Source of the DNA: Ostreococcus lucimarinus
Taxonomy: Eukaryota
Reading direction: 5' to 3' (one strand)
DNA: 64,000 bases
Assembly (NCBI GenBank): GCA_000092065.1
Contig: CP000583.1
Shown here piece after piece: positions 30,829 to 58,100 of the stretch. The notes under the pieces are model-generated. The model saw nothing but the letters and a program-made list of their open reading frames with translations, was not told the DNA's origin and did not search any database. The position numbers and the translations under genes are program-made. How positions within the stretch are numbered: the stretch's first letter is position 1; each line of letters opens with the position of its first letter.

Positions 30829-32412
30829 CTAGCATAAGAACTTCCAGTACAAGTACACCCCGTACCAGCCAATCAAACCGGCACCTGCGAGCGAGACGAC
30901 AGAGAGCACGATCGCGAACGCGATGGTCCAAACGACCTCGGATCGCTGCAAACGCGTCTTACGACTCTTGCGCTTCAAGCGCACCGTGCCCACAGCTTCA
31001 CTATCACCGCGTTTTAGTGTTTTACCACCTTTCATGATCACAGTGCCGCCCTCTTCTTCGTCAGCGCCTGCGTCGACGGTCGCGCTGACGTCGAACACTT
31101 CGGCGTCCAAGTCGAGCGTCATGTCGATGGGCGCCGGATAACTCGCCGTCGACCGCGAGCGCGGAACGGCAATCGTGGGATCACCCGTGAGCGTGTTCCA
31201 CACGACGCCTTGCGAGCGTTGCAAAACGCGCATGTCGCTTCGCTCGAGCGTCGATTTTGCGGCGGCAAAAATGCTCCCAACCAAGATGAGCGTCGACGCA
31301 AACGCGTCGCGCGCGAGTACGGCGCCCCCTATGCCGGCAGACATGATCAATCCGGCAAAAATCGGCTGCAGTGACCCGTAACACGCGGTGACAACCGGCG
31401 TCGTGTCCGCTTCCGCGCGCGTAGTCAACGCGTACGCCGCCGAGGCAAGCACGCCGACGGCGGCGACGGCGGCCCACGCGTTCGATTGCGTCACCAAAGC
31501 AATCGGCGCCTCCGCGGTGACGTGCTCGCGCAACACGAGAGGAACGGTGATGGCGATCCCCATGAGTGCACCCATAGTTTGCGAAACCACGGCCACGGTG
31601 ATGGGATTGTACTCGCGCAAGATGGATTCTTGAAACGCCAAGTACGCCGCGAAGAGCGCGCTTCGAAATAGCAACAGAATATTACCCGAGCTCAGCCACA
31701 TTCGCGCCGGATCGAGGAGTAATATCGTCCCGATCACGCTCAACGCGATCGCGGAGAATTTACCCACGCTCGGCCTCTCGATTCCTTGAAACACGGCGAT
31801 CGTGCACGAATACACCGGCACCAATTGCCCCAGGACGACGGCGTTTCCGAGCGACGCCCGCTTCAATCCGTACGCCAAACATATTTGCGCCAAACAAACG
31901 CACGCCGCGAGCAGAATCATCACGGTCGACGTGCACAGCGCGTTCCTTTTCTTCACATTATTCAACTCCCGCATCGTCTCCCCTCGCACGCGCGCCAACA
32001 AGTAAATGAACGGCAACGAAATCGCGCACCTCGCCAACGTAAACTGCGCCGCGCTAAAGTAATTCATCGACTGCGCGCTCATGCACATCGCCCCCACGAA
32101 GCACGCCTGCGCGCACGTCAGCAACAACGCGCTCTGCGACGCGCGTTTCACGTCGTCCCTCACCTTTCTCCGCATCTCATCCAACTCCTCGGGAAACGTC
32201 TCGCTCAGCGTCTCCAGAAACGCCGCGAGCTCCGTCTTATTCCTCCATCTCTTCCGCCCCGCGCTCGCCGCCGTCGCGCGCGCGTCCGCGACGCCGTCGT
32301 TCGCGTCCTCCGTCTCGCCCGCGCCGTCCCGTCCGCTTCGCGCGCGCGCGCGTCCCCACCCGCGGCCGTCGTCGCGATCGACGCGCGTCGTCAACATCGT
32401 TCGCATCGTCAT
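30829..32412 (-). CDS. Drug/metabolite transporter (DMT/EamA-like) family membrane protein with a C-terminal TM anchor
   Basis: Ten hydrophobic helices in an EamA-like arrangement (..LGQLVPVYSCTIAVFQG.., ..LQPIFAGLIMSAGIGG..). The ORF's first 240 aa are antisense to the HD gene and are discarded. ATG at 32412. Confidence 0.55.
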   Translation of the reverse strand: MTMRTMLTTRVDRDDGRGWGRARARSGRDGAGETEDANDGVADARATAASAGRKRWRNKTELAAFLETLSETFPEELDEMRRKVRDDVKRASQSALLLTCAQACFVGAMCMSAQSMNYFSAAQFTLARCAISLPFIYLLARVRGETMRELNNVKKRNALCTSTVMILLAACVCLAQICLAYGLKRASLGNAVVLGQLVPVYSCTIAVFQGIERPSVGKFSAIALSVIGTILLLDPARMWLSSGNILLLFRSALFAAYLAFQESILREYNPITVAVVSQTMGALMGIAITVPLVLREHVTAEAPIALVTQSNAWAAVAAVGVLASAAYALTTRAEADTTPVVTACYGSLQPIFAGLIMSAGIGGAVLARDAFASTLILVGSIFAAAKSTLERSDMRVLQRSQGVVWNTLTGDPTIAVPRSRSTASYPAPIDMTLDLDAEVFDVSATVDAGADEEEGGTVIMKGGKTLKRGDSEAVGTVRLKRKSRKTRLQRSEVVWTIAFAIVLSVVSLAGAGLIGWYGVYLYWKFLC

Positions 32413-32566
32413 CGTTCGCGCCTTCTCGTCGCCGCGCGCGCGCGTCGCGCGTCGCCCGCACCGCGTCGACGTCGTCGCGCGCGCGCTCGACGCCGCGCGC
32501 GCCGTCGCCGTCGTCGCCATCGCCGACGGTGCGTCGTCGACTGTCGTCAATCCGCGCCGCGTCGCG

Positions 32567-33280
32567 ATGCCCGCGACCGACCGCGCATCGTTCGAGCGCG
32601 ACGTCGTCGCGCGCGCCGAGCGCTTCGCGCGCGACGCCCTGGCCTCGAACGACGGCTCGCACGATCTCTGGCACGTCGAGCGCGTGCGCGCGAGCGCGGT
32701 GGCGCTCGCGAGGCTCGAGGGCGCGAACGCGTTCGTCTGCGAGCTCGCCGCGCTGCTGCACGACGTCGACGATTGGAAGTACGCGCGCGGCGACGGCGCG
32801 AAGGGCCGGGCGAGGACGTTTCTGGAAGACTCGTGCGCGGACGTCGACGCGGCGACGCGCGAGACGGTGCTGGACGTGTGCGCGCGGATCGGGTTCAAGA
32901 GCGAACTCGAAAAAGCTGAAAAATCGCGCGCCGACGACGACGAGGAGAGCGTCGAGTTTCGATGCGTGCAAGACGCCGATCGATTGGACGCGATCGGCGC
33001 GATCGGCATCGGGCGGACGTTTTGTTTCGGCGGCGCGCGCGGGAATCCGATGCACGTGCCCGGCGTGCCGCCGATGGTGGACGTGACGGCGGCGCGGTAC
33101 GAGGCGGCGCATCGCGACGAGACGCGGCCGAACACGACGATTAATCATTTCCACGAAAAGTTGTTCAGGCTGAGGGGTCTGATGAAGACGGCGTCGGGGC
33201 GCGCGCGCGCCGAGCGCAGGCACGCGACGATGGTCGAGTTCGTCGAGCGGTTTCACCGCGAGTGGGACGGCGACGAGTAG
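32567..33280 (+). CDS. HD-domain metal-dependent phosphohydrolase (YedJ/HD superfamily)
   Basis: HDLWHVERVRASAVALARL...LHDVDDWKY...DADRLDAIGAIGIGRTFCFGG is an HD motif. ATG at 32567. The 5' extension of the ORF is antisense to the DMT gene. Confidence 0.75.
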   Translation: MPATDRASFERDVVARAERFARDALASNDGSHDLWHVERVRASAVALARLEGANAFVCELAALLHDVDDWKYARGDGAKGRARTFLEDSCADVDAATRETVLDVCARIGFKSELEKAEKSRADDDEESVEFRCVQDADRLDAIGAIGIGRTFCFGGARGNPMHVPGVPPMVDVTAARYEAAHRDETRPNTTINHFHEKLFRLRGLMKTASGRARAERRHATMVEFVERFHREWDGDE

Positions 33281-33300
33281 CGGCGGCGCAAAGTTTAGTA

Positions 33301-33325
33301 TTCATTCATTCATTCATTCATTCGT
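33301..33325 (+). repeat. (TTCA)n microsatellite, about 6 units, in the 5' region of the ROK/EF/TRX gene
   Basis: ttcattcattcattcattcattc read directly. Confidence 0.8.
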
Positions 33326-33363
33326 TCCTTCACTCACTCGCGCGCGCGCGCCGACGCCGGGCG

Positions 33364-35007
33364 ATGGCCGCCGCGTCTTCGTCGCTCGCCGCGCGCGCGT
33401 CGCGCGTCGGCGCCGCGGCGTCCGCGCGCGGCGTCGCGCGGCGTCGAGCGACGAAGACGCGTCGCGTCGACGCGGCGACGTCGCGTCGGCGCGGCGGCGG
33501 CGCGCGCCCGCGGGCGCTCGCGAGCGACGCGGACGCGGACGAGATCCTGGGCGTGTACGTCACGGCGTCGGCGGAGGACATACGCGCGGCGCCGGTGAGG
33601 GCGAGCGATGGGACGTTCCTGCGCGCGGGGGCGAGCACGAAGCTCGAGGCGGCGACGGCGAGCGGCGTCGCGGCGGCGGTGAAGCGATTGGTCGAGCAGA
33701 TGGAGTGGACGGGGGCGATCGGGATATCGCTGCCGGGATTAGTGACGCGCGTGGAGGGCGAGAGAGGCGATGGGGCGAGAGGGACGATGGCGAGGACGGA
33801 CATCGAACGCGCGGTGAAGCAGGCGACGGGGTGCGAGACGTCGATTTCGAGCGGCGCCGAGGCGTGCGGGGCGGCGGAACTGGCGTACGGTGCGGGCGTG
33901 GAACTTTCGGGCGGAGAGGCGAAGGGATTAGTGATGTTTTGCATGATCGGTGGGCGGTTCAGCACCAGTCTGTACGATGGAGGGAAGGTTGTGAAGAACT
34001 TTGCGGGCGAAAAGTTGAGCGACGGCGACGGCGACGTCTCGGGAATATCGACTTTACCCGACATCGGTGGCGCAAACGATACCGACGAGGCGTGGACGGC
34101 GTTTGGTGAACGCGTGCGCGAGTACTTGAGCGAGCTCGAGCGAAAGTATAAGCCGGACGTCATCATTCTCGGTGGTAAAGCTGGTCAAAATGCCGACAAA
34201 ATTATGGACAAGTTGACCGCGCTTAACACGAAAGTCGTGCCGGGGACTCTGGGCTTCGTCGCCGGTGTCAAGGGTGCGGCGTTACTAGCGAAACAGCAAA
34301 TTGGCTTGCGCGAAACGCTCGCGCAAGTGCGCGAAGCCGTAGGCGTCCAGACTGGCGTGAGCCCTCAATTCGTCTCGGATGAACAGTTGAAGAGCGTCTT
34401 CGACACATTCGACACGTCGAAGAACGGCGTTTTGGAACTCAATGAACTCGTCGACGCGACGCTCGCGCTCAACGTAAAAGTGAACGACGTGCAGTCGTTG
34501 ATGGATTCCTTGGATTTGGACGCGAACGGTGTCGTCACTTTCGATGAATGGTGCAGGTGGTGGAAGAGCGAAGTGTCGACTGAAGCCGTCACGACTATTG
34601 TCTCGCAAGACGAGTGGCGCCGCGTGCTGAAAATGGAAAGCAAAAGACTCATTTGCCTCGAAGTCGGTTTTACGTTTTGCCGACCGTGCAAAGCGTTCGC
34701 GCGCAAGTATCATCAAATCTCCGAGCAATTCCCGAGCGTCAAGTTCGTCTACATGAATGGGAACGAAAACGGGAGTACTACGATTCTCGCGCGCGACGAT
34801 CTCGGTGTGAAGTCGACGCCTTCCTTTTTCTTGTTTCGAGCGGGCGAAAAGTTGCATTTCCACTCCGGTGCGAAAGAAGAGCGCTTGCGCAACGCGATTA
34901 ATCGCCACATGCGCGACGGAGAATGGCCAGCGTTGGCCGGACCTCGACCGCCTGTGATTTCAGAAGACGAGGAGTTGCGCGCAGCGGCGGCGGCGGAAGC
35001 GACTTGA
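33364..35007 (+). CDS. Fusion protein: ROK/polyphosphate-glucokinase-like sugar-kinase domain + two EF-hands + thioredoxin-like domain, with a transit-peptide-like N-terminus (calredoxin-like C-terminal half)
   Basis: ROK-like glycine loops (AIGISLPGLV, MIGGRFSTSLYDGGKV, VIILGGKAGQNADKI). EF-hands FDTFDTSKNGVLELNELVDATL and LDLDANGVVTFDEWCRWW. TRX-like LICLEVGFTFCRPCKAFARKYHQISEQFPSVKFVYMN. ATG at 33364 follows the HD gene stop. Confidence 0.6.
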   Translation: MAAASSSLAARASRVGAAASARGVARRRATKTRRVDAATSRRRGGGARPRALASDADADEILGVYVTASAEDIRAAPVRASDGTFLRAGASTKLEAATASGVAAAVKRLVEQMEWTGAIGISLPGLVTRVEGERGDGARGTMARTDIERAVKQATGCETSISSGAEACGAAELAYGAGVELSGGEAKGLVMFCMIGGRFSTSLYDGGKVVKNFAGEKLSDGDGDVSGISTLPDIGGANDTDEAWTAFGERVREYLSELERKYKPDVIILGGKAGQNADKIMDKLTALNTKVVPGTLGFVAGVKGAALLAKQQIGLRETLAQVREAVGVQTGVSPQFVSDEQLKSVFDTFDTSKNGVLELNELVDATLALNVKVNDVQSLMDSLDLDANGVVTFDEWCRWWKSEVSTEAVTTIVSQDEWRRVLKMESKRLICLEVGFTFCRPCKAFARKYHQISEQFPSVKFVYMNGNENGSTTILARDDLGVKSTPSFFLFRAGEKLHFHSGAKEERLRNAINRHMRDGEWPALAGPRPPVISEDEELRAAAAAEAT

Positions 35008-35076: not shown

Positions 35077-36643
35077 CTAAGTTGACGTTCCCGCGTCCTT
35101 TTTATAATAAGTCGGCGCGTCGGCTTCGACGGCGGGCTTGCGCGTCGTGCGCTCTTGTAACGCTCGCACCGCGTCTTTGCCCGCTGCCGCCGCCGCTGTC
35201 GCCGCGGCCGTCGCTGCCGCCGTGGCTGCAGATGCGCGTTCTGCCGCCGCCGCCGTCGAAGCTGACGCGCTTTCCCAAATACCGCCCATGCTGAAATTCT
35301 TCAGCGTATCGCTCACTTGATGGCTCACGCTCTTCGCCTCGATCACGATTCGTCGCGGGCTTTGCGCTTCTTCCAAAGGTCCATCTTGCGCGCCACCTTT
35401 AGGCGGTGGCGGGCGCAAGTTCACCCCGTGCATGTCTTCGTCCGCGATCCCGAGCGCCTCTTTTCTCGCCAGTGCGATGCGTTCTGCTTCGCCGACGTCC
35501 ATGGACTTTTCCGACTTGATTTCGTGCGGCTGGTTGAGAATTGCCCCCTTCGTCTGGTCCGCACGCGCGCGAACACCGTAAAGCGTGTACATTTTTCCGC
35601 TCGACGCGTCACGTTCGTCGCCATCAGCGTCCGCGTTGAAGAAATCGTCCAAATCGCTCGTCATCTTTGAGGACATGGTCGACGCGACGTCGAGCGACGA
35701 AGCGATGTCCTTCAGGGACTCATCCTTCGAGAGAACCGAGACGTCCTTACTCTTCTTCTTCGCCAAACTCGCGAGTTTCTTCTTAAGTTCTTGCTCGGCT
35801 GCGATTTCCTCCGTCGTCCTCGAACTCACTTGGTTCGTCATCGCGTCGTTCACCAACATGTCGTGCAACTGAAGCACGTGTGCGACTTCCTCCTGGAACG
35901 CCGCCTCTGCCTCCGCATCCTTCGCCTCTGCATCGTCTCGTCGTTTATACAACGCATCCAACTCGGCTCCGATCTCCGCTTCGAGTAACATCTCCTCCAC
36001 CTCGGACAGCAGCTCCACCGTTCGGTTGAGCGACTCGCTCTGTTCCCAAACCTTCGCCGTCATCCCCGAAACTTCCGCGAGTTCGCGCTCGAGCGCCACC
36101 CACGACTCCTCTTGCTTCCGTATCGTCGATTCCAGCGTCGCGCTGTGCCGCAGCGCGATCCTCGCGCGCGCGTCCACGTGCGCGTGTCGCACGTCGTACG
36201 CCTCCATCGTTTCCTCCACCGCGCGCGCGTACGCCGCCAAACCTCCATCCACTCGCGTATCCTCCTGTCGCGTTCGACCGCAATCATCCTCTTCGTCAGT
36301 CCATCGAATCGGCGTCTCCGCGCGCGTCTCCGGTCGTCCCTCGTCCGCGCGAACACCAAACGCGCGTCGCCGCTCGTCGTCGTCGTCTCTCGTCCCATCG
36401 CTCGCGTCGTTCGCGCACCGTCTCCGCGCGCCTCGCGCGCAGCATCGTCTCCAACACGCCCTCGCGCACGCTCGTCGAGCGTTCGAGCGCGTCCCGCGCG
36501 TCCCGCGCGCCCCGTCCGATCGTCTCCGTCATCGCCTCGACCGCGGACGTCCCGGCGCTGTGCACGCGCGCGACCGTCTCGCTCTTCGCGATCGCGCTCG
36601 ACGCGCGTCCGTACGCGTCGCGCAAGAACTCGTGCGTCGTCAT
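35077..36643 (-). CDS. Hypothetical coiled-coil protein; exons 36643..36419 and 36264..35077 with a 154-nt intron (GTGCGC...GACTGAC...CGACAG)
   Basis: Exon 1 MTTHEFLRDAYGRASSAIAKSETVARVHSAGTSAVEAMTETIGRGARDARDALERSTSVREGVLETMLRARRAET joins in frame to EDTRVDGGLAAYARAVEETMEAYDV... This gives a long helical protein with an acidic middle and an Ala-rich C-terminus. Confidence 0.5.
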
Positions 36644-36708
36644 CGCGCGTCCGCGACGCGTTCGTCGGCGCGCGGCGCTCTGCCGCCGCACTTCGCGACG
36701 CGACGACG

Positions 36709-37527
36709 ATGCTGACGCGACGCGCGACGATTCATCCACCGCGCGTCGCGATCCGGTCGCGACGCGCGACGCGCGCGCGCGATGGACGGCGGCGCCGCGA
36801 CGCGCGCGTCCGCGCGAGCGCGCGGATCACGCTCGTGCGCTGCGACGTCAAGGCGGAGGCGATGGATGATTTTCTGCGATTGACGGAGGAAAACGCGCGC
36901 GCGAGCGTTCGCGAGGCGGGGAACGTGCGCTTCGACGTGCTCCGGGACGAGAAGGATAGAAATTTAGTGACGCTGGTCGAGATATACGCCGACGACGCGT
37001 CGGCGGCGAAGCACAAGGAGACGAAGCATTACGAGACGTGGCGAGACGAAGTCGCGGATATGATGGCGGCGCCGCGGAGCGCGGAGACGTATCTGGCGAT
37101 CGAACCGAACGACGACGCGTGGACGTACGCGAACGCCGTGACGTGGAACGAAGACGATGATCAGAGCGAGATGGTGAACGCGAGTTGCGTGCACGTGCAC
37201 TGCGAATGCGCGGCGGGCGACGAGGCGGCGTTTGCCTCGGCGTGCGCGAAGAACGCGAGCGAATCCGCGTTAGAGGATGGGAATTTGCGCTTTGACGTGT
37301 TCCAGAGCGCCGAGAGCGCGCGAAAGTTTTTATTGGTTGAGGTGTACGACGGCGCGGCGAGCGCGGTGGCGCATAAATCGACGCCGCATTACGAGGCGTG
37401 GCGAGAGGAAGTCGCGAACATGATGGCCCGGCCTCGCCAGGCGCGCGCGTACGACGTCGTGTTTCCGCCCACGAAAATCAGTTGGCGCGGCGACGCGTGC
37501 GGCGACGCGTGCGACACGACGTGGTGA
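36709..37527 (+). CDS. Tandem ABM-domain (antibiotic-biosynthesis-monooxygenase / Dabb-like) protein with a presequence-like N-terminus
   Basis: Two repeats of NVRFDVLRDEKDRNLVTLVEIYADDASAAKHKETKHYETWRDEV / NLRFDVFQSAESARKFLLVEVYDGAASAVAHKSTPHYEAWREEV (ABM fold signature). ATG at 36709. Upstream ORF sequence is Arg/Ser low-complexity. Confidence 0.7.
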   Translation: MLTRRATIHPPRVAIRSRRATRARDGRRRRDARVRASARITLVRCDVKAEAMDDFLRLTEENARASVREAGNVRFDVLRDEKDRNLVTLVEIYADDASAAKHKETKHYETWRDEVADMMAAPRSAETYLAIEPNDDAWTYANAVTWNEDDDQSEMVNASCVHVHCECAAGDEAAFASACAKNASESALEDGNLRFDVFQSAESARKFLLVEVYDGAASAVAHKSTPHYEAWREEVANMMARPRQARAYDVVFPPTKISWRGDACGDACDTTW

Positions 37528-57617: not shown

Positions 57618-57716
57618 GCGTTCGTGACCGAGTGGTTTTAAGGTGCTCGCCTGCTATTGATGAGAGCAGTGAGTGAGTGTGCTCTGCACGCCCAGGTTCG
57701 AATCCTGGCGAACGCG
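57618..57716 (+). tRNA. tRNA-Ser (anticodon GCU) with a 15-nt intron 3' of position 37; copy 1 of a tandem array
   Basis: Acceptor GCGTTCG/CGAACGC, D-arm ACCGAGTGGTTTTAAGGT, anticodon loop CUGCUA + intron TTGATGAGAGCAGTG (its AGC pairs with the anticodon), 3' stem GTGAG, long variable arm GTGCTCTGCACGC (identical to the human tRNA-Ser-GCT variable arm), T-arm CCAGGTTCGAATCCTGG, discriminator G. An oligo-T (T6) terminator follows immediately. Confidence 0.75.
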
Positions 57717-57766
57717 TTTTTTATTTTACAGTTTTACGGCGCCATCGCGACGCCATCGTGCCGCTA

Positions 57767-57866
57767 TCGTTCGTGACCGAGTGGTTTTAAGGTGCTCGCC
57801 TGCTATTGATCGAGAGCAGTGAGTGAGTGTGCTCTGCACGCCCAGGTTCGAATCCTGGCGAACGCG
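57767..57866 (+). tRNA. tRNA-Ser (GCU) copy 2, 16-nt intron; position 1 is U (U1:C72 mismatch)
   Basis: Same structure as copy 1, 150 bp downstream. The intron has one extra C (TTGATCGAGAGCAGTG). Followed by T6. It may be less functional because of the acceptor mismatch. Confidence 0.6.
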
Positions 57867-57916
57867 TTTTTTATTTTACAGTTTTACGGCGCCATCGCGA
57901 CGCCATCGTGCCGCTA

Positions 57917-58016
57917 TCGTTCGTGACCGAGTGGTTTTAAGGTGCTCGCCTGCTATTGATCGAGAGCAGTGAGTGAGTGTGCTCTGCACGCCCAGGTTCG
58001 AATCCTGGCGAACGCG
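57917..58016 (+). tRNA. tRNA-Ser (GCU) copy 3, identical to copy 2
   Basis: Identical 150-bp unit. Followed by T6. Confidence 0.6.
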
Positions 58017-58100
58017 TTTTTTATTTTACAGTTTTACGGCGCCATCGCGACGCCATCGTGCCGCTATCGCGATGGTACAGACGCCGCCTCGGCCTTCTTC

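What the first reader, a model, noticed from the sequence alone, without database searches (positions are those of the whole stretch)
33364..35007. Presumed plastid-targeted ROK-kinase-like + EF-hand + thioredoxin fusion (calredoxin-like with an added sugar-kinase-like domain)
The C-terminal half (2 EF-hands followed by a thioredoxin-like domain) resembles algal calredoxin-type Ca-dependent redox proteins. The N-terminal half looks like a ROK/polyphosphate-glucokinase-type ASKHA fold with glycine-rich loops. A kinase-like sensor fused to a Ca/redox module, together with a transit-peptide-like N-terminus, is an unusual combination worth checking. The putative TRX active site reads CRPC rather than the classic CGPC.
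Basis: inference. Interest (0 to 1): 0.6.

Follow-up and report, generated by a model that had tools for sequence, protein, structure and literature searches.

The report
Calredoxin-like thioredoxin with dead kinase domain
This Ostreococcus gene encodes one protein that joins an inactivated bacterial-type sugar-kinase fold to a calcium-binding module and a calredoxin-type thioredoxin. The same layout is conserved from early-branching green algae to dinoflagellates but is not described in any paper I could search.

Summary
Window 33364-35007 (+) is one intact 547-codon ORF, and an identical 547-aa gene is called in public assemblies.

It has four parts:
- An Ala/Arg/Ser-rich, disordered presequence (about 1-55).
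- A polyphosphate-glucokinase (PPGK)-type ROK/ASKHA domain (59-326).
- Two canonical EF-hands (338-402).
- A thioredoxin domain (408-516) with active site FCRPCK.

The best solved-structure match is Chlamydomonas calredoxin (5E37), whose active site is also WCRPCK. The EF pair aligns with calredoxin EF3-EF4. Four calredoxin inter-domain network residues (T236, K242, N267, N269) are conserved.

All five catalytic motifs of the kinase-like domain are degenerate here and in all 32 relatives aligned. The domain is still under purifying selection (dN/dS about 0.18, against 0.70 for the presequence). I read it as an ancient pseudoenzyme.

The three-domain layout occurs in Ostreococcus, Micromonas, Cymbomonas, Tetraselmis, Prasinoderma, Mesostigma and dinoflagellates. 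Some members carry an extra N-terminal DCC1-like domain.

The most likely function is an organelle-targeted, Ca2+-gated disulfide reductase, with the dead kinase fold acting as scaffold or sensor. Ca2+ dependence, localisation and the N-domain's role are inferred. I rate it a new variant of a known kind, of moderate interest.

The parts
33364..35007 (+). Complete coding sequence: 547 aa plus stop, no intron needed.
   Evidence: ORF list and translation. No upstream in-frame ATG. An identical 547-aa gene is called in Logan assembly SRR1179203. The order EamA / HD / target / 391-aa ORF is the same in an O. tauri-like contig.
33364..33528 (+). Presumed organellar presequence (residues 1-55).
   Evidence: 80% A/S/T/R/G, 14 K+R, first acidic residue at position 36. 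pLDDT about 30, no secondary structure. dN/dS 0.70 against O. tauri, versus 0.10-0.18 for the folded domains. Targeting itself is inferred.
33538..34341 (+). PPGK-type ROK/ASKHA domain, catalytically degenerate (residues 59-326).
   Evidence: NF045942 covers 72-309, 75.5 bits. The family profile hits 1WOQ at 3e-32 over 73-311. Foldseek's best hit is 1WOQ, E 1e-15, TMt 0.75. dN/dS 0.18.
33547..33573 (+). Remnant of the phosphate-1 motif: LGVYVTASA where PPGKs have LGIDIGGTG.
   Evidence: Alignment with three bona fide PPGKs. Asp becomes Tyr65 and GGT is lost in all family members.
33847..33864 (+). Remnant of the catalytic ND-A-D motif: SSGAEA where PPGKs have NDADAA. The catalytic-base Asp is Gly164.
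   Evidence: No family member keeps ND.
33943..33966 (+). Remnant of the phosphate-2 motif: MIGGRFST where PPGKs have TFGTGIGT.
33994..34017 (+). Remnant of the sugar-binding N-x-E-x-G-H motif: KNFAGEKL where PPGKs have PNTELGHL.
   Evidence: Only Asn212 is kept.
34168..34182 (+). Remnant of the adenosine motif: LGGKA where PPGKs have IGGGV/A.
34375..34569 (+). EF-hand pair (residues 338-402), aligned with calredoxin EF3-EF4.
   Evidence: Pfam EF-hand_7, 3.6e-10. The family profile aligns 341-414 to calredoxin 114-188.
34411..34446 (+). EF-hand 1 Ca2+ loop: DTSKNGVLELNE. D, S, N, G, L and E sit at positions 1, 3, 5, 6, 8 and 12.
   Evidence: It follows the same D-x-S-x-N-G pattern as the calredoxin Ca3 loop DKSGNGTIGATE.
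34513..34548 (+). EF-hand 2 Ca2+ loop: DLDANGVVTFDE (canonical). It corresponds to calredoxin EF4, which gates TRX activity.
   Evidence: D384 and E395 are invariant in the 15-sequence green-lineage alignment A1.
34585..34911 (+). Thioredoxin domain (residues 408-516), calredoxin type.
   Evidence: Pfam PF00085, 2.9e-9. The family TRX profile hits 5E37 best, 86.9 bits. pLDDT above 90.
34678..34689 (+). Redox-active CRPC (C439, C442), followed by K443.
   Evidence: C439 and C442 are invariant in 30 of 30 members. Calredoxin has WCRPCK, with C238, C241 and K242 (PMC4911631).
34759..34770 (+). GNEN loop (G466-N469), the equivalent of calredoxin G266-N267-A268-N269.
   Evidence: N467 and N469 are invariant in A1. 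The stretch aligns without gaps to calredoxin but with two 2-residue gaps to a classical thioredoxin. Calredoxin N267 and N269 lie on the Ca4-to-Cys238 hydrogen-bond path (PMC4911631).
34819..34821 (+). Pro486, at the position of the thioredoxin-fold cis-proline.
   Evidence: Invariant in 30 of 30 members.

Best explanation
The gene encodes an organelle-targeted, calredoxin-type Ca2+-regulated thioredoxin. In place of calredoxin's first EF-hand pair it has a catalytically dead domain derived from polyphosphate glucokinase.

Proposed mechanism:
1. The presequence delivers the protein to an organelle. The plastid is most likely, by analogy with calredoxin.
2. Ca2+ binds the two canonical EF-hands, above all the one next to the TRX domain.
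3. Binding is relayed through conserved contacts (T437, K443, N467, N469) to the C439-x-x-C442 site and switches on disulfide-reductase activity. Likely clients are 2-Cys peroxiredoxin and related proteins.
4. The ASKHA domain cannot phosphorylate sugars. It is retained as a non-catalytic module, either for docking or oligomerisation or for binding a ligand.

Shown here: the gene model, the domain identities, the loss of the kinase motifs, purifying selection, and conservation of the architecture.
Inferred: Ca2+ gating, the clients, the compartment and the role of the N-domain.
For: Gene model:
- One ORF and one called gene, with conserved gene order in an O. tauri-like contig.

Link to calredoxin:
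- 5E37 is the top PDB hit for the full family profile (6e-37), for the TRX-only profile (86.9 bits), for the dinoflagellate subgroup profile (82.8 bits against 56.6 for the next hit, a calmodulin) and for the EF-TRX model by Foldseek (E 1.8e-13).
- The calredoxin TRX domain scores 54.7-81.3 bits against the 16 members that outscore human TRX1 (53.5 bits), among them the window protein and every named green-lineage member; the named dinoflagellate members score lower, 46.6-47.8 bits.
- The CRPCK motif, the GNxN loop and the ungapped alignment are shared.
- T236, K242, N267 and N269 of the published inter-domain network are conserved.
- Both EF loops are canonical.
- In calredoxin the TRX domain alone is inactive and the EF3/EF4 lobe forms the interface (PMC4911631).

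Pseudokinase:
- Homology to PPGK is firm (hhalign probability 99.1% for the dinoflagellate subgroup).
- DxGGT, ND, GTG, ExGH and GGG are all lost, here and in the 32 relatives aligned.

The domain is still functional:
- dN/dS is 0.18 against 0.70 for the presequence.
- Its identity across the green lineage matches that of the EF pair.
- The whole-protein AlphaFold model is confident: pLDDT 80.6, pTM 0.75.
Against: - No biochemical data exist for any member.
- The margin of calredoxin over human TRX1 for the TRX-only profile is small (86.9 against 82.3 bits). With the single window sequence an ancestral thioredoxin scores slightly higher.
- Two experimentally probed calredoxin network residues are not conserved: Q154 is D381 and K263 is Y463.
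- The AlphaFold EF-TRX model does not reproduce the inter-domain geometry of the calredoxin crystal (TMq 0.56, rmsd 12.8 A over 201 columns).
- The linker between EF2 and TRX is about 17 residues shorter than in calredoxin.
- Relatives carry an N-terminal DCC1-like domain. From my own recollection, not checked here, Arabidopsis DCC1 is mitochondrial, so a mitochondrial location is not excluded.
Confidence: 0.62

Rival explanations
1. The N-terminal domain is a non-catalytic metabolite sensor. It would bind a sugar phosphate, a nucleotide or polyphosphate and allosterically tune the thioredoxin. The protein would then integrate metabolic state with Ca2+ and redox signals, much as ROK repressors use the same fold to sense sugars.
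For: ROK repressors (Mlc, Lmo0178) are among the structural neighbours. The domain is under purifying selection. The replaced motifs are themselves conserved, for example GAEA at 164-167 and an Arg or Lys in the phosphate-2 loop of most green-lineage members.
Against: The residues that bind the hexose in ROK proteins are lost (N and D of ND, E and H of ExGH), and so are all three nucleotide-binding glycine motifs. Any ligand would therefore have to bind in a new way. No ligand-binding test was possible.
Confidence: 0.2
2. The N-terminal domain is still an active polyphosphate- or ATP-dependent sugar kinase, regulated by Ca2+ and redox through the C-terminal module.
For: The Pfam ROK score is just above the gathering threshold. 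The PPGK model aligns over its full length. The fold is well predicted.
Against: The Asp of DxGGT is Tyr65 and the catalytic-base Asp is Gly164. GTG, ExGH and GGG are all changed, in every member examined. The NCBIfam score of 75.5 is far below the cut-off of 250.
Confidence: 0.04
3. The thioredoxin is constitutively active. The EF-hands are only structural, or they mediate Ca2+-dependent docking rather than gating of catalysis. The calredoxin analogy would then hold for architecture but not for mechanism.
For: The TRX domain is nearly as similar to classical TRX h and f types as to calredoxin. Q154 and K263 of calredoxin are not conserved. The predicted EF-TRX orientation differs from 5E37. 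EF2 is degenerate in some distant members.
Against: Both loops are canonical in this protein. The residues linking Ca4 to Cys238 in calredoxin (T236, K242, N267, N269) are invariant in the green-lineage alignment. The EF pair directly precedes the TRX domain in all members.
Confidence: 0.15
4. The fusion is an artefact: two adjacent genes read as one ORF, or an unrecognised intron, as the truncated 266-aa RefSeq model of O. lucimarinus would suggest.
For: XP_001416545.1 begins at Met113 and diverges after EF-hand 1, so it lacks the TRX domain. GC-rich DNA produces long spurious ORFs.
Against: The reading frame is continuous and conserved at protein level across all three domains in more than 30 lineages. 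These include transcriptome-derived sequences (Tetraselmis MMETSP0491, MMETSP 'type:complete' ORFs, Trinity). The O. tauri model is 535 aa. dN/dS is below 0.2 along the folded regions.
Confidence: 0.02

Closest known systems
Calredoxin (CRX, Cre03.g202950, PDB 5E37) of Chlamydomonas reinhardtii
   Same: An EF-hand pair directly precedes a thioredoxin domain with a (W/F)CRPCK active site and a GNxN loop. T236, K242, N267 and N269 of the Ca4-to-active-site network are conserved. Both have an N-terminal presequence. 5E37 is the best PDB match by sequence profile and by fold.
   Different: This protein has two EF-hands, not four. The calredoxin N-lobe (EF1-EF2) is absent and a 270-residue pseudo-PPGK domain sits in its place. 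The EF-TRX linker is about 17 residues shorter. Q154 and K263 are not conserved. The predicted inter-domain geometry does not superimpose. Reviews describe calredoxin orthologs as limited to green algae (PMC8491031), whereas this architecture also occurs in Mesostigma and dinoflagellates.
Polyphosphate/ATP glucokinases: PPGK (NCBIfam NF045942) and Arthrobacter PPGMK (PDB 1WOQ), the zinc-motif-less branch of the ROK family
   Same: Same fold and domain length. Alignment is end to end (72-309 against 11-241 of 242; TMt 0.75). About 30-34% identity to bacterial PPGKs.
   Different: All catalytic and substrate-binding motifs are replaced. The score is far below the family cut-off. The domain is eukaryotic and fused to other domains, and no activity is expected.
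Non-enzymatic ROK proteins (Mlc, NagC-type repressors, Listeria Lmo0178)
   Same: They set a precedent for a ROK sugar-kinase fold kept as a regulatory, non-catalytic module. They are structural neighbours.
   Different: They carry a DNA-binding domain and, from my own recollection rather than a test here, generally keep a sugar-binding pocket. This protein has no DNA-binding domain and its pocket residues are lost.
DCC1-like thiol-disulfide oxidoreductases (PF04134)
   Same: This domain is present at the N-terminus of 6 of the 30 members scanned, among them Micromonas, Cymbomonas and Tetraselmis. The long form of the family therefore has two redox domains flanking the pseudokinase.
   Different: It is absent from the Ostreococcus protein and from the whole window (tblastn).

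Membership tests
Calredoxin (CRX) | Thioredoxin domain with a redox-active (W)CRPC motif followed by Lys | tested here: met
   FCRPCK at residues 438-443. The two cysteines are invariant in 30 of 30 relatives. Calredoxin has WCRPCK.
Calredoxin (CRX) | Four EF-hands forming a calmodulin-like domain | tested here: not met
   There are only two EF-hands. They align with calredoxin EF3-EF4 (26.1 bits) better than with EF1-EF2 (16.3 bits).
Calredoxin (CRX) | Residues of the Ca4-to-disulfide communication network (Q154, T236, K242, K263, N267, N269; PMC4911631) | tested here: inconclusive
   T437, K443, N467 and N469 are conserved and invariant in A1. Q154 is D381 and K263 is Y463 (mapping).
Calredoxin (CRX) | EF-lobe/TRX packing as in crystal structure 5E37 | tested here: inconclusive
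   The AlphaFold model of residues 328-522 (pLDDT 89, pTM 0.65) has 5E37 as its top Foldseek hit, but with TMq 0.56 and rmsd 12.8 A. The domains match individually; their relative orientation does not.
Calredoxin (CRX) | Ca2+-dependent thioredoxin activity; reduction of 2-Cys peroxiredoxin | not testable with these tools
   Needs enzyme assays.
Calredoxin (CRX) | Chloroplast stroma localisation | not testable with these tools
   The only evidence is a presequence-like N-terminus. No targeting predictor was available.
ROK / polyphosphate glucokinase | ASKHA two-lobe fold with PPGK-like length and no ROK zinc motif | tested here: met
   1WOQ is the best match by profile (3e-32) and by fold (TMt 0.75). 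NF045942 is covered end to end.
ROK / polyphosphate glucokinase | Phosphate-1 motif DxGG(T/S) | tested here: not met
   YVTAS aligns with DIGGT.
ROK / polyphosphate glucokinase | Catalytic-base Asp in the N-D motif | tested here: not met
   S163-G164 aligns with N-D.
ROK / polyphosphate glucokinase | Phosphate-2 G-T-G-x-G, sugar-binding E-x-G-H and adenosine G-G-G motifs | tested here: not met
   The corresponding stretches read GGRFS, AGEK and GGK.
ROK / polyphosphate glucokinase | Curated score thresholds | tested here: inconclusive
   Pfam ROK scores 24.3 against a cut-off of 22.9 and passes marginally. NCBIfam PPGK scores 75.5 against 250 and fails.
Thioredoxin fold (PF00085) | CxxC at the start of helix 2, plus the cis-proline loop | tested here: met
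   C439, C442 and P486 are invariant. The TRX part superimposes on human TRX with TMt 0.94-0.95 and rmsd 1.0-1.2 A.
EF-hand | Canonical 12-residue loops with acidic or polar ligands at positions 1, 3, 5 and 12 and Gly at 6 | tested here: met
   DTSKNGVLELNE and DLDANGVVTFDE. Pfam EF-hand_7, EF-hand_1 and EF-hand_6 all score above their cut-offs.
DCC1-like (PF04134) | N-terminal DCC domain as in the Micromonas, Cymbomonas and Tetraselmis orthologues | tested here: not met
   No Pfam hit in this protein. No tblastn hit in the window better than E 0.5.

The most novel reading that the evidence does not exclude
The pseudo-PPGK + EF-pair + CRPC-thioredoxin protein, with or without an N-terminal DCC domain, is the ancestral form of calredoxin. 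On this reading it was already present in the common ancestor of Viridiplantae, since it occurs in Prasinoderma, Mesostigma and the prasinophytes, and it was passed to or shared with dinoflagellates. Chlamydomonas calredoxin would be a derived version that lost the dead kinase and duplicated the EF pair. The retained pseudokinase would act as a real metabolite or polyphosphate sensor, or as a client adaptor, making the protein a three-input hub for metabolic state, Ca2+ and redox in the plastid.
Probability: 0.2. Interest if true: 0.75.

Novelty: new variant of a known kind. Interest (0 to 1): 0.55.

Why it matters
Calredoxin is the only characterised protein that couples Ca2+ sensing directly to thioredoxin activity in a chloroplast. 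Reviews describe it as unique, with putative orthologs limited to green algae (PMC13351737, PMC8491031).

This locus changes that picture in four ways:
- The Ca2+-responsive core (one EF pair plus a CRPC thioredoxin) is much more widespread. It occurs in ecologically dominant picoplankton (Ostreococcus, Micromonas), in the deep-branching lineages Prasinoderma and Mesostigma, and in dinoflagellates including coral-symbiont relatives.
- In these organisms the core is always tied to a conserved, catalytically dead polyphosphate-glucokinase fold, a module with no assigned role in redox or Ca2+ signalling.
- It gives a concrete hypothesis for the origin of calredoxin.
- It offers a tractable model, since O. 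tauri is, to my knowledge, transformable, for asking what a pseudo-sugar-kinase does in a redox relay.

It also flags a wrong reference gene model in O. lucimarinus that hides the architecture.

Tried and rejected
- DCC domain in the window: I searched with the Micromonas and Cymbomonas DCC segments by tblastn. Nothing scored better than E 0.5. The domain is absent here rather than encoded next door.
- Calredoxin inter-domain packing: I modelled residues 328-522 alone and searched PDB. The two domains match individually, but the orientation does not (TMq 0.56, rmsd 12.8 A). This cannot be used as support.
- TRX-only comparisons: calredoxin is top for the family profile, but only 4-5 bits above human TRX1. 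It is second for the single sequence. The claim of a specific relationship therefore rests on motifs, indels, architecture and pairwise scores, not on this margin.
- Population-level dN/dS against a 99%-identical allele (L002): only 5 differences, so uninformative. I used the O. tauri-like orthologue instead. There dS is near saturation (pS 0.62-0.79), so the ratios are approximate.
- Word-indexed homologue searches with each half returned few hits. The exhaustive profile search was needed.
- The afdb50 fold library was unavailable.
- Six literature searches and one supplement search found no description of the fusion. Two relevant papers were not held (PMC3790290, PMC6952598).
- Active kinase: considered and rejected because the motifs are lost.
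- Two-gene artefact: considered and rejected because of cross-lineage and transcriptome conservation.
Full report
**Observation**

The + strand carries an uninterrupted ORF from 33262 to 35007. Its first in-frame ATG is at 33364, and no ATG lies upstream in frame. Translation gives 547 residues plus a stop. Exactly this protein is called as a single gene in a public assembly (Logan SRR1179203). It belongs to a 90%-identity cluster of 83 members that includes an Ostreococcus lucimarinus CCE9901 entry, so the window comes from O. lucimarinus or a very close strain.

The RefSeq model in that cluster, XP_001416545.1, is only 266 aa. It starts at Met113 of this ORF and diverges after the first EF-hand, so it lacks both the N-terminus and the thioredoxin domain. 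The O. tauri model is 535 aa. Gene order is the same in an O. tauri-like contig: EamA transporter on the minus strand, HD-domain gene, target gene, then a convergent ORF with no Pfam match.

**Domain content**

- Pfam finds an EF-hand pair (340-400, 3.6e-10), Thioredoxin (411-513, 2.9e-9) and ROK (92-177, 24.3 bits against a cut-off of 22.9).
- NCBIfam's best model is polyphosphate-glucose phosphotransferase (NF045942). It aligns to residues 72-309 over positions 11-241 of 242, but scores only 75.5 bits against a cut-off of 250.
- A profile of 15 relatives searched against PDB gives two leading hits. Chlamydomonas calredoxin 5E37 comes first (6e-37). Arthrobacter polyphosphate/ATP-glucomannokinase 1WOQ comes second (3e-32, residues 73-311 against 21-263).
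- AlphaFold2 on that alignment gives pLDDT 80.6 and pTM 0.75. Only residues 1-55 and 218-228 are disordered.
- By Foldseek the closest fold is 1WOQ (E 1e-15, TMt 0.75). ROK kinases and ROK repressors follow, and 5E37 ranks fourth.

**The kinase-like domain is a pseudoenzyme**

I aligned the domain with three bona fide PPGKs and with 1WOQ. Every functional motif of the ROK/ASKHA kinases is replaced:

| Motif | PPGK | This protein |
|---|---|---|
| Phosphate-1 | DIGGT | YVTAS |
| Catalytic base | N-D-A-D | S-G-A-E (Asp becomes Gly164) |
| Phosphate-2 | GTGIG | GGRFS |
| Sugar binding | N-T-E-L-G-H | N-F-A-G-E-K |
| Adenosine | GGG | GGK |

The same losses, with lineage-specific replacements, occur in all 32 relatives aligned. 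The inactivation is therefore ancient.

The domain is not decaying. Against the O. tauri-like orthologue its dN/dS is about 0.18. The EF pair gives 0.10, the thioredoxin domain has dN 0.16 with dS saturated, and the presequence gives 0.70 (dS is near saturation, so the values are approximate). Across the green lineage the domain is as conserved as the EF pair, at 31-39% identity.

**The C-terminal half is calredoxin-type**

- Calredoxin's active site is WCRPCK. The 'unusual' CRPC is thus a calredoxin signature and not a deviation from it.
- The EF pair aligns with calredoxin EF3-EF4 (26.1 bits) better than with EF1-EF2 (16.3 bits).
- Both Ca2+ loops are canonical: DTSKNGVLELNE and DLDANGVVTFDE.
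- In the calredoxin structure paper the EF3/EF4 lobe forms the interface with the TRX domain, and the TRX domain alone is inactive. A hydrogen-bond path runs from the Ca4 ligand Asp157 through Gln154, Leu235, Thr236, Asn267, Ala268 and Asn269 to Cys238, with Lys242 beneath the disulfide (PMC4911631).
- Mapping through the HMMER alignment gives T236=T437, K242=K443, N267=N467 and N269=N469. All four are invariant in the 15-sequence alignment. Q154 is D381 and K263 is Y463, so these two are not conserved.
- The GNEN stretch aligns without gaps to calredoxin but needs two 2-residue gaps against a classical thioredoxin.
- In pairwise BLAST the calredoxin TRX domain scores 54.7-81.3 bits against the 16 members that outscore human TRX1. 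These include the window protein (60.5 bits) and every named green-lineage member. The best is Mesostigma, at 41% identity. Human TRX1 scores 53.5 bits and E. coli TrxA 38.1. The named dinoflagellate members score below human TRX1, at 46.6-47.8 bits.

Three caveats apply:
- A TRX-only family profile ranks calredoxin first by only 4-5 bits over human TRX1.
- An AlphaFold model of residues 328-522 (pLDDT 89) has 5E37 as its top hit, but its inter-domain orientation does not superimpose (TMq 0.56, rmsd 12.8 A).
- The EF-TRX linker is about 17 residues shorter than in calredoxin.

**Distribution**

An exhaustive profile search of 1.84 billion cluster representatives returned about 35-40 proteins matched in one stretch across all three domains. 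Those that carry names, with the calls that identified them:
- Ostreococcus.
- Micromonas pusilla, Cymbomonas tetramitiformis and Prasinoderma coloniale.
- Symbiodinium natans (two proteins) and Polarella glacialis.
- Tetraselmis chui (MMETSP transcriptome) and Mesostigma viride (two proteins).
- Further MMETSP and Trinity transcripts.

For the dinoflagellate subgroup on its own:
- Calredoxin is the top PDB hit (82.8 bits, with the next hit, a calmodulin, at 56.6).
- The N-domain is homologous to PPGK by profile-profile comparison (probability 99.1%, E 1.4e-18).

Pfam on 30 members finds Thioredoxin in 30, EF-hands in 26-28, ROK in 10 and a DCC1-like thiol-disulfide oxidoreductase domain in 6. 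The DCC domain lies N-terminal to the pseudokinase in Micromonas, Cymbomonas, Tetraselmis and others. It is absent from Ostreococcus and from the window.

The active site is C(R/K)PC in most of the green-lineage and intermediate sequences (one has CNPC). It is mostly CR(T/S/A)C in the dinoflagellate-type members. More divergent proteins of 550-620 aa keep the EF-TRX half after an N-region that Pfam does not recognise. Short EF-pair + TRX proteins of about 270 aa also exist.

**Mechanism**

My best reading is an organelle-targeted Ca2+-gated disulfide reductase that works like calredoxin. Ca2+ binding to the EF pair, especially the hand adjoining the TRX domain, would enable the CRPC site to reduce clients such as 2-Cys peroxiredoxin. 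The dead PPGK fold replaces calredoxin's N-lobe. It serves as a selected non-catalytic module for docking or oligomerisation, or possibly for ligand sensing.

- Shown: the gene model, the domain homologies, the motif loss, the selection and the conservation.
- Inferred: Ca2+ gating, the clients, the compartment and the N-domain's role.

The presequence is A/S/T/R-rich, disordered and fast-evolving. That fits organelle import but does not distinguish plastid from mitochondrion.

**Comparison and novelty**

The protein fails strict calredoxin membership, because it has two EF-hands rather than four and a different N-terminal module. It also fails strict PPGK membership, because all catalytic motifs are lost and its score is below the cut-off. 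It most plausibly works like the former and is derived from the latter.

Reviews call calredoxin unique, with putative orthologs limited to green algae (PMC13351737; PMC8491031). None of my full-text searches found any mention of a kinase-like domain fused to an EF-hand thioredoxin. The same holds for searches by accession number and of the calredoxin paper's supplements. The sequences are public but carry only generic names ('thioredoxin 1', 'predicted NBD/HSP70 family sugar kinase/thioredoxin', 'Thioredoxin-like fold').

I rate this a new variant of a known kind.

Noticed in passing
window 57618-58069 (+): Three tandem copies of a 150-bp unit, 99% identical. Each holds a roughly 99-nt tRNA match (Rfam RF00005; 43.9, 35 and 35 bits). 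ARAGORN reports only the first copy and calls it tRNA-Asn with anticodon 'att'. That looks like a misreading of an intron-containing or long-variable-arm tRNA. A GCT in the anticodon-loop region would suggest tRNA-Ser.
   Followed up: partly
window 33700-34480 (region covered by RefSeq model XP_001416545.1): The O. lucimarinus CCE9901 reference protein for this gene is 266 aa. It starts at Met113 of the real ORF and ends in a divergent 'VEERSVD' after EF-hand 1, so it misses the presequence, the start of the pseudokinase and the whole thioredoxin domain. It is a mis-annotation that hides the architecture.
   Followed up: yes
window 30832-33277 and 35077-37524: Neighbouring genes: an EamA-family transporter (minus strand, 30832-32100), an HD-domain protein (32516-33277, +) ending 84 nt before the target ATG, a convergent 391-aa ORF with no Pfam match (35077-36252, minus), and a protein with two ABM monooxygenase domains (36796-37524, +). 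The order is conserved in an O. tauri-like contig. No functional link to the target is evident.
   Followed up: partly
window 33940-33942 (Cys193): A cysteine just before the degenerate phosphate-2 loop (LVMFCMIGG) is present in about 20 of the 33 family sequences aligned (window included), including many dinoflagellate-type ones. Real PPGKs have Thr or Ile there. It could be a regulatory thiol within reach of the fused thioredoxin. This is pure speculation and was not tested.
   Followed up: no
window 33281-33363: The 83-nt spacer upstream of the start codon contains a (TTCA)n-like run (TTCATTCATTCATTCATTCATTCGTTCCTTCACTCACTC) followed by a (GC)n stretch. It may be part of a promoter or 5'UTR.
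   Followed up: no
relatives P0109 (266 aa) and P0175 (275 aa): Short proteins consisting only of an EF-hand pair plus the calredoxin-like thioredoxin, with a short N-terminal extension. They may be stand-alone 'mini-calredoxins' or truncated gene models. Their source organisms are unknown.
   Followed up: partly
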